Assembly (NCBI GenBank): GCA_030059665.1
Contig: JANVYR010000002.1
Coordinates: 224,001-288,000 of the forward strand
Length of the DNA: 64,000 bases
Direction: 5' to 3'
From: Candidatus Calditenuis fumarioli
GTDB lineage: Archaea; Thermoproteota; Nitrososphaeria_A; Caldarchaeales; Calditenuaceae
Every line of letters begins with the position of its first letter. The first letter of the stretch is position 1. Made by a program: the position numbers and the translations under genes. Positions 21,251 through 23,275 of the stretch are shown one piece after another. The notes beneath the pieces were generated by a model, which worked only from the letters and a program-made list of their open reading frames with translations, ran no database searches and was not told where the DNA came from.

Positions 21251-23275
21251 TTGCCGACGCTGAAGGAGGTCCTGGGACCGCTGATCTCCGCGGCGAGGCA
21301 CGTCTTCATGAAGCCCTACACGATCAAGTACCCCTACGAGAAGGTCCCGGGGATGCTGCAGGAGAACTACCGCTACGACCCCAAGGCGGGCATCGCTTAC
21401 CCAGGGACGAAGGGCAGGCATCTGCTCAGGATGGACAAGTGCACCGGGTGCAGCCTCTGCGACATAGCCTGCCAGAACATCGCCGAGGCGATCACGATGG
21501 TCTACGCTTATGACGTCTTCCTAGACGTCCCTGAAGATGTCTTCAAGGAGTACGGCGACCCGTCCTCGCCCGTGACAGGGGTTGCGGCGGCGCTTGCGGA
21601 GGGCCTCGCGGAGGTGGCAGAGCTCGGAGAGGTCAAGTACGGGTTCTCTCATCCCGTGGTCCCGGTGCTCCCGGACCTGAAGACCGTGACGAAGCACGAC
21701 GGCTACAGCTCGATCAGGCTCGTCAGCGGTCCGGTCTGGGCGAGGGGCATCGACTACCTCGTCTACAACTACCTCGAGGGCGCCTTCGGGGCCCTCCAGC
21801 GTTCGGGATACACGGTCTCCCTCGTCGAGGACCAGTCGCCCGACAGGGTGGTTTACGAGGTTGCCAAGGACGTGAAGGCGGTCCGGATCAGGATCGAGAA
21901 GCGGAACATGAACATCCCCGTCAACAAGAAGTCCTACTTCCCCTCGGTCGATTACGGGAGGTGCGTTTTTTGCGGTTTCTGTGTCGATCCCATGACCCCC
22001 GTTATAGTGAATCCAGGGTTAAAGCCGATAGCGGAGATCGGAATAGGTGATAAGGTTTTGACTCATACCGGAGAATACAGACCTGTTACCAAGATATGGG
22101 AATTGAGCTACACTGGATATCTCTACAAGATCGAGGTCTATGGTCATCCGGACCCGTTGATATGCACTGCAGACCATCCGATACTCGCCGTATGTAGACC
22201 GTTTTCGTCGAGAAAAGACAGAAGGTTGCTGCGTGTTAAAGAACCACTCGGGTTCGTTCTACCAGACCAATTGAAGCGCGGTGACTATGTCGTCCTGCCA
22301 ATTCCAAAGAAGGTCGTGGAATCGCCCCTCTATACTCAACCTGTAAGGCTTTACAGAAACGGTCGGGTTGAGGAAGTACTCAAGCTTCCCAACGAACCCG
22401 ATCTGTACAGACTGATAGGATACTACCTAGCTGAGGGATTTTGCGATGGCGATAGGGAGGTGAACTTTACGTTCGGGGCATACGAAACCGAAGTTATAGA
22501 GGATTGCAAAGCACTCATTTCGAGATACTTCAATAAACAGGTGAAAGAGGAGAAGAACACCGGAAGAGGGATCAGACTAGCTTTGCATAGTGTGAGGGCG
22601 TTCCATTTCTTCAAACAGTTCGGACAGGGCGCTCATAATAAGAGAATCCCCGATTGGGTGTTTTTCGCGGACTTCAGCAAACAGGTCCAGCTAGTCAAAG
22701 GGCTCTGGCTCGGTGACGGCTGCTTAGTCAACCAGCCGCGTCAACGATATTTAAATATTACAACCACATCAAAAACGCTTGCTTACCAGACGCAGCTGGT
22801 CTTGGCAAGATTAGGCGTAGTGGGAGTCGTTGAGCGTCAAAATTGCGCGGGCAAGAAAACCGTTTATAGGGTCAACGTTTTCGGCAAATATGCCCTCGAG
22901 CTCGCTAACAAGATGGGCATAGACATGGTATATGCTCCGACGAAATTCGTCGATAAGTTCCAAATAACAGAGAACTACGTTTACTATCCGATACGAAGCA
23001 TTGATCGGCAATTCGTCGCGAATTACAAGGTGATGGATGTGACTGTGGCGGACGATCACACGTTCGTTCCTGCAGGAGTGACCACCTCCAACTGCGTGGA
23101 CGCCTGTCCCTTCTACGCCCTCGAGATGACTCCAGACTTCGAGCTCTCATCGCTTTCAAGGCAGGGCCTGGTTTACTTCCCTACGGCCCTCGCGGCGCCC
23201 AAGTTCTCCTCTCCTCCCCCCTCGATCAACCCGATAGACGCGATCATGGGCTGGCTGAGGCGCAAGCTCCTCTGA
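21251..23275 (+). CDS. nuoI: NADH-quinone oxidoreductase subunit I-like 2x[4Fe-4S] protein, intein-containing precursor
   Basis: [23 protein letters not shown]...EAI..[17 protein letters not shown][intein][20 protein letters not shown], matching Nitrososphaeria-type NuoI; TTG start inferred. Confidence 0.88.
   Translation: [674 protein letters not shown]
21980..23092 (+). mobile_element. Intein with LAGLIDADG homing endonuclease (371 aa)
   Basis: Starts [21 protein letters not shown]; block B CTADH; LAGLIDADG motifs LIGYYLAEG and [10 protein letters not shown]; ends [21 protein letters not shown] followed by Cys+1; AT-richer than host gene. Confidence 0.95.

What the first reader, a model, noticed from the sequence alone, without database searches (positions are those of the whole stretch)
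21980..23092. Homing-endonuclease intein inside the [4Fe-4S] motif of respiratory subunit NuoI
The intein sits in CxxCxx|CxxxCP (CVFCGF-intein-CVDACP), so the Cys+1 nucleophile is itself a cluster ligand and the second cluster site exists only after splicing. Established: inteins concentrate in DNA replication/repair and nucleotide enzymes, so a respiratory Fe-S host is atypical; MCM, Cdc6 and DP2 here are intein-free. The intein ends Ser-Asn with no penultimate His and starts CVD, like the downstream extein. Inference: splicing could be redox-, metal- or temperature-conditional and gate complex I assembly.
Basis: partly seen in the sequence, partly recalled or inferred. Interest (0 to 1): 0.8.

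Follow-up and report, generated by a model that had tools for sequence, protein, structure and literature searches.

The report
Mobile intein splitting NuoI iron-sulfur motif
The gene for NuoI, an iron-sulfur subunit of the complex I-type respiratory enzyme, in this hot-spring archaeon is interrupted at a cluster-binding cysteine by a complete self-splicing mobile element (an intein with a DNA-cutting domain); the element is real and was gained recently, but it is an ordinary kind of selfish element that also sits unlabelled at this site in about 30 other archaeal species.

Summary
Window 21980-23092 encodes a 371-aa class-1 intein with a LAGLIDADG endonuclease domain. It lies in frame in nuoI at CVFCGF|C...TSN|CVDACP. 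All six same-genus genomes have the uninterrupted site, and only this genome among 76 of its class carries the intein. Its GC is 48%, against 62% for the host. Contigs from four other hot-spring or sediment studies bridge a junction.

The site is not unique: a pattern scan of one genome per species (GTDB) found 30 genomes with a related intein at exactly this position, in Nitrososphaerales, Conexivisphaerales and soil MAGs labelled Bathyarchaeota. Some alleles carry a second intein six residues upstream. This scan had already followed up NuoI inteins in four other genomes.

The missing penultimate His is a trait of the clade. Ser is kept there with both TCN and AGY codons, which argues for selection and for working splicing. 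The "CVD" likeness to the extein is not conserved.

Nothing here supports a regulatory gate. The Cys-3/Cys1 CxxC geometry recalls the MoaA redox trap, so the idea is testable. I found no paper describing a NuoI intein.

Verdict: a new member of a known kind, of moderate interest.

The parts
21239..21979 (+). N-extein of nuoI. The likely start is the GTG at 21239, although the frame is open from 21140. It holds the first motif [11 protein letters not shown], an insert domain of about 135 aa typical of the order, and the first half of the second motif, CVFCGF (Cys-6, Cys-3).
   Evidence: Homologues of 302-309 aa start at the residue that corresponds to 21239.
21980..23092 (+). NuoI-b intein, 371 aa: class 1, Cys1 ... 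Ser370-Asn371, with a nested LAGLIDADG endonuclease.
   Evidence: The AF2 model has pLDDT 90.9. Foldseek top hits are TliVMA, PI-SceI, PI-PkoII and PI-PfuI.
21980..22009 (+). Splicing block A ([10 protein letters not shown]); Cys1 is the first nucleophile.
   Evidence: Cys1, Pro4, Thr6 and Val8 are invariant in alignment A3.
22166..22177 (+). Splicing block B, TxxH (Thr63-Ala-Asp-His66).
   Evidence: T63, D65 and H66 are invariant in A3. The motif T..H[PK] was found in 24 of the 30 related loci scanned; my regular expression did not match the other six.
22397..22915 (+). LAGLIDADG homing-endonuclease domain (intein residues about 140-312).
   Evidence: Pfam PF14528. The profile aligns to the PI-PkoII endonuclease domain. 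Helix/strand pattern of the model. Foldseek matches I-DmoI and I-Tsp061I over this part.
22412..22438 (+). LAGLIDADG motif 1 (LIGYYLAEG) with the acidic residue Glu152.
22691..22720 (+). LAGLIDADG motif 2 ([10 protein letters not shown]) with the acidic residue Asp246.
   Evidence: D246 is at least 90% conserved and G247 is invariant.
23030..23092 (+). Splicing blocks F and G ([13 protein letters not shown] / PAGVTTSN): Asp353 (F:4), His360 (F:13), penultimate Ser370, terminal Asn371.
   Evidence: N371 invariant; D353 and H360 at least 90% conserved. Codon usage for Ser370 in relatives.
23093..23275 (+). C-extein of nuoI, [12 protein letters not shown]... to the stop. Cys+1 is the 3rd ligand of the second motif and Cys+4 is the 4th.
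   Evidence: It is 81-93% identical to the same-genus C-termini.

Best explanation
This is a genuine class-1 intein with a nested LAGLIDADG homing endonuclease, and it behaves as a selfish mobile element. It is translated as part of a NuoI precursor of about 678 aa. Cys1 attacks the Phe(-1) peptide bond. Cys+1, which is the third ligand of the second CxxCxxCxxxCP motif, takes over the N-extein. Asn371 then cyclises and the exteins are joined, giving a 307-aa NuoI with the restored motif [12 protein letters not shown]. Only then can the two [4Fe-4S] clusters be inserted and the subunit join the complex I-type enzyme. The element entered this hot-spring Caldarchaeales lineage after it split from its sampled congeners. 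The likely route was endonuclease-driven homing from another host with the long form of NuoI, and the element is now fixed in the species. The Ser in place of the penultimate His is an inherited variant of this intein clade that still allows splicing. What is shown: the anatomy, the empty sites, the foreign composition, the family distribution and the presence in several populations. What is inferred: that splicing happens, that the endonuclease is active, and the route of acquisition.
For: Anatomy. Cys1, TxxH, block F Asp/His, terminal Asn, Cys+1 and two LAGLIDADG motifs with Glu152 and Asp246 are all present. The AF2 model of the intein with short flanks has pLDDT 90.9 and pTM 0.91. It matches endonuclease-bearing inteins: TliVMA 7qsu (E 1.8e-21, TM 0.70), PI-SceI, PI-PkoII and PI-PfuI.

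Insertion. All 6 same-genus genomes, and every intein-free homologue of 302-309 aa, have the contiguous motif [12 protein letters not shown]. Only 1 of 76 genomes of the class has the intein.

Foreign composition. GC is 48.2% against 62%, and GC3 is 55% against 80-86%.

Family. 30 species genomes have a related intein (38-56% identity) at exactly CxxCxx|C...N|CxDxCP of NuoI, and all are free of stops. The clade is monophyletic (SH-aLRT 91). The window's intein pairs with P0003 (78% aa identity; exteins 52%).

Selection for a working element. The penultimate Ser is encoded by TCN in 16 loci and AGY in 7. Within the species there are 7 SNPs in the intein: 3 synonymous and 4 conservative.

Not an assembly artefact. 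20 runs from 11 studies hold the stretch. Contigs from four other studies, at 99% identity or more, bridge at least one junction each (X17 and X19 span the whole stretch, X16 bridges both junctions on two contigs, X20 only the N-terminal one), and none skips the intein.

The host enzyme is present. nuoA, B, D, H and three antiporter-like genes are in the genome, and this is the only NuoI-like gene with all three NuoI segments.
Against: No experiment shows splicing or DNA cleavage. The penultimate His, which usually assists Asn cyclisation, is missing, although inteins that splice without it are known (PMC4031507, refs 74 and 87). The third-codon-position identity between the window's intein and its closest relative is only 47%, so no recent donor has been identified. 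Low GC also marks many relatives of this intein in their own hosts, so the composition argues for foreignness but does not date the event. The intein tree broadly follows host groups: hosts with the long form of NuoI cluster together. Some vertical descent followed by many losses therefore cannot be excluded.
Confidence: 0.85

Rival explanations
1. The intein is a conditional maturation switch. Splicing is held back under oxidising conditions by a Cys-3/Cys1 disulfide (C-G-F-C), or by metal binding to the five cysteines crowded at the junction. NuoI, and so complex I assembly, would then be gated by redox state, iron supply or temperature.
For: Cys-3 and Cys1 form a CxxC. This is the geometry of the N-extein-Cys to Cys1 disulfide trap described for the P. 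abyssi MoaA intein (PMC10663303). Zinc inhibition of splicing through junction residues is documented for Ssp DnaE (PMC4031507, refs 87 and 88). The penultimate Ser is kept under selection, which might tune C-terminal cleavage. Relatives of this intein recur at redox or Fe-S cysteines: NuoI-a, ABCE1, IscU, OFOR-beta, TrxR and radical SAM proteins.
Against: There is no positive evidence of conditionality. The distribution is sporadic: 1 of 76 genomes in the class and 0 of 6 congeners. A full-length endonuclease with intact motifs and a foreign composition are the marks of a selfish invader, not of a domesticated regulator. The CxxC comes from the host motif and would arise at this site whatever the function. 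The liking for cysteine sites is explained by the need for a Cys+1 nucleophile in a highly conserved DNA target.
Confidence: 0.12
2. The intein no longer splices, for example because the penultimate His is lost. On this reading nuoI is in effect a pseudogene and the complex I-type enzyme is defective or dispensable in this species.
For: The penultimate His is absent. The nuo genes are dispersed and do not form one operon.
Against: The ORF is intact in every population sampled, and the within-species changes are only conservative or synonymous. Every other splicing residue is present. Ser at this position is conserved in 23 of 30 related loci with both Ser codon families. The other nuo genes are intact. 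Relatives without any intein have the same dispersed gene arrangement.
Confidence: 0.03
3. The insertion is an assembly or binning chimera that joins low-GC foreign DNA into nuoI.
For: There is a sharp GC step at both junctions.
Against: The insertion is exactly in frame, with canonical intein ends. Independent contigs from four other studies bridge a junction at 99% identity or more. The same architecture occurs in 30 other genomes.
Confidence: 0.005

Closest known systems
Endonuclease-bearing archaeal and yeast class-1 inteins with solved structures: TliVMA/PhoVMA (PDB 7QSU, 7QSS, 7QST), PI-PkoII (2CW7), PI-SceI (1VDE, 1EF0), PI-PfuI (1DQ3)
   Same: Both are class-1 inteins with a nested two-motif LAGLIDADG domain. 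They are the best structural matches (7qsu E 1.8e-21, TM 0.70; 1ef0, 2cw7, 1dq3) and the best sequence-profile matches (2cw7 E 2.6e-14; 7qsu; 7qss).
   Different: Identity is only 12-20%. The hosts differ (ATPase and DNA polymerase against an Fe-S ferredoxin-type subunit). Those inteins end His-Asn, whereas this one ends Ser-Asn. This intein is compact: 371 aa, with no large extra DNA-recognition region of the PI-SceI kind visible in the model.
NuoI-b and NuoI-a inteins of uncultured Nitrososphaerales, Conexivisphaerales and MAGs labelled Bathyarchaeota. They are unlabelled in databases and were noted by this scan as e1-4026687, e1-3954152, e1-1510774 and e1-1223778.
   Same: The host protein and the insertion point are the same (CxxCxx|C...N|CxDxCP). 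Identity is 38-78%, most end TSN, and they form one clade.
   Different: This host is a thermophilic Caldarchaeales archaeon with the long form of NuoI (305 aa), and it is the only carrier among 76 genomes of its class. It has no second intein at site a. Some relatives carry both inteins, separated by just the six residues CVFCG[FL].
Pyrococcus abyssi MoaA intein (redox trap; Callahan et al. 2011, as reviewed in PMC10663303)
   Same: Both are archaeal inteins in an oxygen-sensitive Fe-S enzyme with a Cys in the N-extein close to Cys1. Here Cys-3 gives a CxxC with Cys1.
   Different: The disulfide trap is shown by experiment for MoaA and is only a possibility here. The host and the site differ.
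Inteins that splice without a penultimate His (Ssp DnaE; Chen, Benner and Perler 2000; cited in PMC4031507)
   Same: Position G:6 is not His, while the other splicing residues are intact.
   Different: The residue here is Ser and it is conserved across a natural clade. Which residue compensates is unknown.
Other inteins in Fe-S proteins: Mtu SufB intein (PMC8891592), the intein-containing radical SAM Tes (NCBIfam NF045703), and this genome's own radical SAM intein
   Same: The host is an Fe-S biogenesis protein or an Fe-S enzyme, not a replication protein. The genome's own radical SAM intein sits in the same local context, CGF|C, at the third Cys of CX3CX2C, and it also lacks the penultimate His (GN).
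   Different: The hosts differ, and identity to the NuoI-b intein is only about 25-30%. SufB is not interrupted at a cluster-ligand motif of this type.

Membership tests
Class-1 intein (HINT splicing domain) | In-frame insertion that is absent from orthologues, whose sequence is contiguous across the site | tested here: met
   Six same-genus genomes and about 60 homologue clusters of 282-310 aa have the uninterrupted [12 protein letters not shown]. The spliced junction aligns colinearly.
Class-1 intein (HINT splicing domain) | N-terminal nucleophile Cys/Ser (block A) and block B TxxH | tested here: met
   Cys1 and Thr63-x-x-His66 are invariant in the family alignment.
Class-1 intein (HINT splicing domain) | C-terminal Asn followed by a Cys/Ser/Thr +1 nucleophile | tested here: met
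   Asn371 is followed by Cys+1. N371 is invariant in A3, and in A4 Asn and the following Cys are both invariant.
Class-1 intein (HINT splicing domain) | Penultimate His (G:6). This is common but not obligatory. | tested here: not met
   The residue is Ser370. Among 30 related loci, 23 have Ser and 7 have His. Inteins without this His are known to splice (PMC4031507, refs 74 and 87), so the feature does not decide membership.
Class-1 intein (HINT splicing domain) | HINT fold with N- and C-termini adjacent | tested here: met
   The AF2 model has pLDDT 90.9. The Foldseek top 16 hits are all endonuclease-bearing inteins.
Class-1 intein (HINT splicing domain) | Protein splicing activity | not testable with these tools
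   It is inferred from the intact residues, the selection on the element and the fact that this is the only nuoI gene found in the genome. No RNA or protein data were available.
LAGLIDADG homing endonuclease (two-motif, monomeric) | Two LAGLIDADG helices, each ending in a catalytic acidic residue | tested here: met
   LIGYYLAEG (Glu152) and GLWLGDG (Asp246). PF14528 E 3.5e-14. Aligned to the PI-PkoII motifs.
LAGLIDADG homing endonuclease (two-motif, monomeric) | Site-specific cleavage of the intein-less allele | not testable with these tools
   There is only indirect support: the patchy distribution and the foreign GC.
NuoI / Nqo9 / TYKY (2x[4Fe-4S] subunit of complex I-type enzymes) | Two CxxCxxCxxxC(P) motifs in a NuoI-type sequence | tested here: met
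   The motifs are [11 protein letters not shown](Q) and, after computational splicing, [12 protein letters not shown]. The best NCBIfam families for the precursor and for the intein-free orthologue P0157 are all NuoI, NdhI or FpoI.
NuoI / Nqo9 / TYKY (2x[4Fe-4S] subunit of complex I-type enzymes) | Score above the curated family cut-off (TIGR01971, 113 bits) | tested here: not met
   The precursor scores 61 bits and the intein-free orthologue P0157 scores 78 bits. The shortfall comes from the order-specific insert of about 135 aa, which splits the model. The protein is therefore best called a long-form NuoI-type subunit.
NuoI / Nqo9 / TYKY (2x[4Fe-4S] subunit of complex I-type enzymes) | Occurs together with the other core Nuo subunits | tested here: met
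   nuoD, nuoA-nuoH, nuoB and three antiporter-like genes are present but dispersed. In relatives nuoI lies next to nuoH or nuoA (L064, L069, read-through in P0017).
NuoI / Nqo9 / TYKY (2x[4Fe-4S] subunit of complex I-type enzymes) | NuoI-like ferredoxin fold of the mature protein | tested here: inconclusive
   The AF2 model of orthologue P0157 has pLDDT below 50 over the cluster-binding core. Only the insert domain is confident.

The most novel reading that the evidence does not exclude
The NuoI-b intein may belong to a guild of related inteins that settle on redox-active or Fe-S-ligand cysteines. Related inteins sit at NuoI sites a and b, ABCE1, IscU, OFOR-beta, thioredoxin reductase and radical SAM CX3CX2C motifs. 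In such sites the host's own CxxC (Cys-3/Cys1) and the selected Ser at the penultimate position could make splicing depend on a reduced, metal-free junction. Maturation of the complex I-type enzyme in this thermophile would then be coupled after translation to redox or iron status.
Probability: 0.1. Interest if true: 0.7.

Novelty: new member of a known kind. Interest (0 to 1): 0.4.

Why it matters
This extends the list of intein hosts to a core respiratory Fe-S subunit. In six full-text searches I found no paper that describes such a host or site. The catalytic +1 cysteine is itself a cluster ligand, so cofactor insertion must wait for splicing. That gives a clean natural system for asking whether inteins in oxygen-sensitive enzymes act as redox or metal sensors, as proposed for MoaA and SufB. 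The clade offers a natural series for the role of the penultimate residue, with Ser in 23 loci and His in 7. It also offers natural double-intein alleles whose two inteins are separated by only six residues. For annotation, these precursors are labelled only '4Fe-4S binding protein' and fall below the NuoI thresholds, so complex I can look incomplete in these genomes. The element itself is an ordinary selfish intein, and this scan has already met it in four other genomes.

Tried and rejected
1. Co-conversion tract. Three of the ten codons just upstream of the intein carry A/T third positions unique to the window, against 10 such codons in 306 overall. An equal cluster lies at codons 91-99, far from the junction, so I do not count this as evidence.

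2. G011 looked like another intein allele because of a 643-aa open frame. It is an artefact of a run of N, and its nuoI is intein-free.

3. G026 and G035 frames of about 726 aa, and the 33-36% matches in G020, G023, G026, G029 and G031. G020's match is an intein in ABCE1 (L067). The ~925-aa frames of G023, G026, G029 and G031 look the same but were not opened, and the long G026/G035 nuoI frames were not inspected. G016's match is an intein in an epimerase.

4. Search for intein-less contigs of the same species. No contig skipped the intein in the four runs laid. Contigs drop rare variants, so this says nothing about a minority of empty alleles.

5. Expression. No RNA holder was listed, and I draw no conclusion from that.

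6. Structure of the mature protein. The AF2 model of orthologue P0157 is unreliable over the Fe-S core. The VIA search matched only the insert domain, to generic alpha/beta plaits with Z of 6.3 or less, so this gave no structural proof of NuoI membership and no named fold for the insert.

7. The 'CVD' mimicry of the extein by the intein start is not conserved in the family.

8. Literature. Searches for intein with NuoI, NADH-quinone oxidoreductase, Thaumarchaeota plus NADH, and iron-sulfur cluster ligand found no description. The supplements of Novikova et al. 2016 are not held, so an entry in their tables cannot be excluded.

9. I looked for a recent donor through the closest relative, P0003/L064. 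Third-codon-position identity is 47%, so no recent donor is identified.
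Full report
**The observation**

The ORF at 21140..23275 (+) is 711 aa. Residues 281-651 (window 21980..23092) form a 371-aa in-frame insert. It begins with Cys, ends Thr-Ser-Asn and is followed by Cys.

Pfam finds a LAGLIDADG_3 domain (E 3.5e-14) and a weaker Intein_splicing match. NCBIfam matches the insert to the intein parts of intein-containing PolD, Tes, DnaB, RpoA'', VMA and IF-2 models. The flanks hit NuoI (TIGR01971) in three separate pieces.

Homologues begin at the residue that corresponds to the GTG at 21239. 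The real precursor is therefore probably 678 aa and the mature protein 307 aa.

**It is an insertion, and it is not an artefact**

A search of 40 related genomes found the N- and C-extein matches directly abutting in all six same-genus genomes. The closest are 84-85% identical in protein. A computationally spliced 300-nt junction aligns colinearly with them over 239-302 nt, at 75-85% nucleotide identity. Each of them encodes the uninterrupted YFP(S/M)[26 protein letters not shown].

About 60 database clusters of intein-free homologues of 282-310 aa exist. They are named Caldarchaeales, Ca. Caldarchaeum or Aigarchaeota where a name is given, which places the host. In the host's class, only this genome of 76 has the intein.

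The stretch is held by 20 sequencing runs from 11 studies, nearly all hot-spring metagenomes. Contigs from four other studies match at 99% or more. X17 and X19 span the whole stretch, X16 bridges both junctions on two contigs, and X20 securely bridges only the N-terminal junction. None skips the intein. The seven within-species SNPs in the intein are three synonymous and four conservative changes.

**Composition**

The intein is 48.2% GC with GC3 of 55%. The exteins are 62.2% GC with GC3 of 80-86%, and the genome is 62% GC. Only 1.55% of genome windows of this length are as AT-rich.

The genome's ribonucleotide reductase intein is fully host-like at 65% GC. Its radical SAM intein is intermediate at 52%.

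**Anatomy**

All class-1 splicing elements are present except the penultimate His:
- Cys1.
- Block B, Thr63-x-x-His66.
- Block F, Asp353 and His360.
- Asn371.
- Cys+1.

Both LAGLIDADG motifs keep their acidic residues: LIGYYLAEG with Glu152 and GLWLGDG with Asp246.

An AlphaFold2 model of the intein with short extein flanks, built on a 28-sequence alignment, has mean pLDDT 90.9 and pTM 0.91. Its best PDB matches are endonuclease-bearing inteins:
- TliVMA 7qsu, E 1.8e-21, TM 0.70.
- PI-SceI.
- PI-PkoII.
- PhoVMA.
- PI-PfuI.

Free-standing LAGLIDADG enzymes match the central domain.

**The host protein**

After splicing, the protein carries [11 protein letters not shown] and [12 protein letters not shown]. 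All of its best family hits are NuoI, NdhI or FpoI. The scores stay below the curated cut-offs, even for the intein-free orthologue P0157 (78 bits against 113). The reason is an order-specific insert of about 135 aa that separates the two motifs.

That insert folds confidently (pLDDT about 90) as an alpha/beta plait with no specific structural relative (Z of 6.3 or less). The cluster-binding core was not modelled reliably.

The genome encodes nuoD, nuoA-nuoH, nuoB and three antiporter-like subunits at dispersed loci. It has no second gene with all three NuoI segments.

From established knowledge of 2x[4Fe-4S] ferredoxin folds, the first three cysteines of each motif bind one cluster and the fourth binds the other cluster. 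The intein therefore separates ligands of both clusters, and neither site is native before splicing. This step is an inference.

**It is not unique**

Seven other intein-bearing NuoI proteins came up at once. The alignments show two insertion sites. Site a lies before the first Cys of the second motif, and its inteins end His-Asn. Site b is the one seen here.

An exhaustive profile-free search with the intein found about 12 representative clusters at 41-60% identity. Below that, identity drops to about 30% for inteins of other hosts.

A pattern scan of one genome per species in GTDB returned 35 loci. Of these, 30 have a related intein (38-56% identity) at exactly CxxCxx|C...N|CxDxCP of NuoI. 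They come from Nitrososphaerales, Conexivisphaerales, 'Thaumarchaeota' and a clade of soil MAGs labelled Bathyarchaeota.

Four of those loci, and three database proteins, carry inteins at both sites. The two inteins are separated by only the six residues CVFCG[FL].

In a maximum-likelihood tree the NuoI-b inteins form one clade (SH-aLRT 91). The window's intein pairs with P0003 (support 100; 78% identity against 52% for the exteins) and then with two other hosts that have the long form of NuoI. This group is apart from the Nitrososphaerales clade and the clade labelled Bathyarchaeota. The nearest relative is not a recent donor, because third-codon-position identity is 47%.

This scan had already followed up NuoI inteins in four other genomes: e1-1223778 at site a, e1-4026687 and e1-3954152 at site b in soil archaea, and e1-1510774 in Bathyarchaeia. 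Six full-text searches found no paper that describes a NuoI intein.

**The Ser-Asn end**

Of 30 related loci, 23 have Ser at the penultimate position and 7 have His. The His carriers are the clade labelled Bathyarchaeota and one Nitrososphaerales genome. Two further database proteins end QHN.

Ser is encoded by TCN codons in 16 loci and by AGY codons in 7. Moving between these two codon sets needs two nucleotide changes, so Ser has been held by selection over a long radiation in hosts that need NuoI. I infer that Ser-Asn inteins of this clade splice. Splicing without the penultimate His is documented for other inteins (PMC4031507, refs 74 and 87).

**The 'CVD' likeness**

The intein start matches the usual block A pattern of Cys, a hydrophobic residue, any residue, any residue, any residue, then Thr. 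Residues 2-3 vary across the family. The clade labelled Bathyarchaeota has intein CVT against extein CTD. At the DNA level the two CVD triplets use different codons. I treat the likeness as coincidence.

**Regulation**

One is the N-extein-Cys to Cys1 disulfide trap of the P. abyssi MoaA intein (PMC10663303). Others are the stress-sensitive SufB intein and the inhibition of Ssp DnaE splicing by zinc. Cys-3-Gly-Phe-Cys1 is a CxxC.

Nothing in the sequence data favours a domesticated switch. The element is sporadic, keeps a complete endonuclease, and looks foreign. The cysteine-rich context follows from the host motif. I put the gate at about 0.12.

**A wider pattern, seen in passing**

The same genome has a radical SAM protein with an intein at CNMRCGF|C...IGN|CQN. 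That is the third Cys of CX3CX2C, the local context is again CGF|C, and the penultimate His is again missing.

A genome of the same order has an ABCE1 intein at the equivalent position of its ferredoxin motif, CIGCGI|C...VHN|CVKKCP.

Relatives of this intein in the representative library sit at cysteines of IscU, OFOR-beta, thioredoxin reductase, Tes-like radical SAM proteins and another ferredoxin. I assigned the IscU, OFOR-beta, thioredoxin reductase and Tes-like hosts from the residues flanking each intein, as printed, and from my own knowledge of those motifs. No family search was run on these proteins.

Cluster-ligand or redox cysteines serving as the +1 nucleophile are thus a recurrent theme and not a peculiarity of this gene.

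**Verdict**

This is a genuine intein, probably able to splice and probably mobile, in a host protein not described in the papers searched. The kind of element is well known, the site is common in uncultured archaea, and this scan has seen it before. New points for this window:
- The host is a thermophilic Caldarchaeales archaeon, and it is the only carrier found in its class.
- The composition contrast with the host is strong.
- Codon usage gives evidence for selection on the Ser-Asn end.
- A second intein sits at an Fe-S-ligand cysteine in the same genome.

Noticed in passing
G000:C2:156494-159115 (L012:349-2970, +), outside the window: An 873-aa radical SAM protein of the same genome carries a 454-aa LAGLIDADG intein at CNMRCGF|CVHPDT...YIAIGN|CQNG. 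That is before the third Cys of the CX3CX2C cluster motif, in the same CGF|C context as the NuoI intein, and it also lacks a penultimate His (Gly-Asn). Its GC is 52%, against 62% for its exteins. Frames of about 890 aa that may be the same protein appear in four same-family genomes.
   Followed up: partly
L067:2138-4903 (+) (G020, same order): ABCE1/RLI (Fer4_RLI plus two ABC domains) carries an intein at the equivalent position of its ferredoxin motif, LCIGCGI|CLDPNTP...LIVHN|CVKKCPFEAI. It is about 35% identical to the NuoI-b intein. Frames of about 925 aa that may be the same protein appear in several genomes of that genus.
   Followed up: partly
L027, L028, L032, L042; proteins P0006, P0010, P0011: These NuoI alleles have two inteins, at site a and site b, separated by only six extein residues (HN|CVFCG[FL]|C). 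In P0011 the site-a element is a mini-intein without an endonuclease domain.
   Followed up: partly
L055:3001-4125 (MAG labelled Omnitrophota); proteins P0065, P0119, P0123, P0058, P0114, P0088, P0142, P0153: Relatives of this intein (about 30% identity) sit at cysteines of what look like IscU/NifU scaffolds (GNP[IV]|C..HN|CGD), OFOR-beta (WCPG|C..N|CGDFGI) and thioredoxin reductase (CAT|C..HN|CDG). The hosts were assigned from the flanking motifs alone.
   Followed up: no
window 21500-21910 (NuoI residues about 120-255); orthologue P0157 residues 90-225: Caldarchaeales NuoI carries an insert of about 135 aa between its two 4Fe-4S motifs. AF2 models the insert confidently (pLDDT about 90) as an alpha/beta plait with no specific PDB relative (best Z 6.3). 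It pushes the protein below the curated NuoI cut-offs, so databases call it '4Fe-4S binding protein'.
   Followed up: partly
G000: nuoD C1:557544-558368, nuoA-nuoH C2:543606-545100, nuoB C2:573501-573830, nuoI window 21239-23275: The genes of the complex I-type enzyme are scattered over the genome and do not form one operon. Relatives (L064, L069) keep nuoI near nuoH or nuoA but on the opposite strand.
   Followed up: partly
window 57440-58612 (-): A free-standing 390-aa ORF with a LAGLIDADG_3 domain (E 1.1e-17) and a basic, low-complexity N-terminal region of about 100 aa. It is not inside an obvious host gene.
   Followed up: partly
G000:C1:616723-619887 (L008:46-3210, -): A ribonucleotide reductase carries a classical intein (NP|CVTGDT...LLVHN|CGEEP) whose GC (65%) matches the host. 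This suggests an old resident, in contrast to the NuoI intein.
   Followed up: partly
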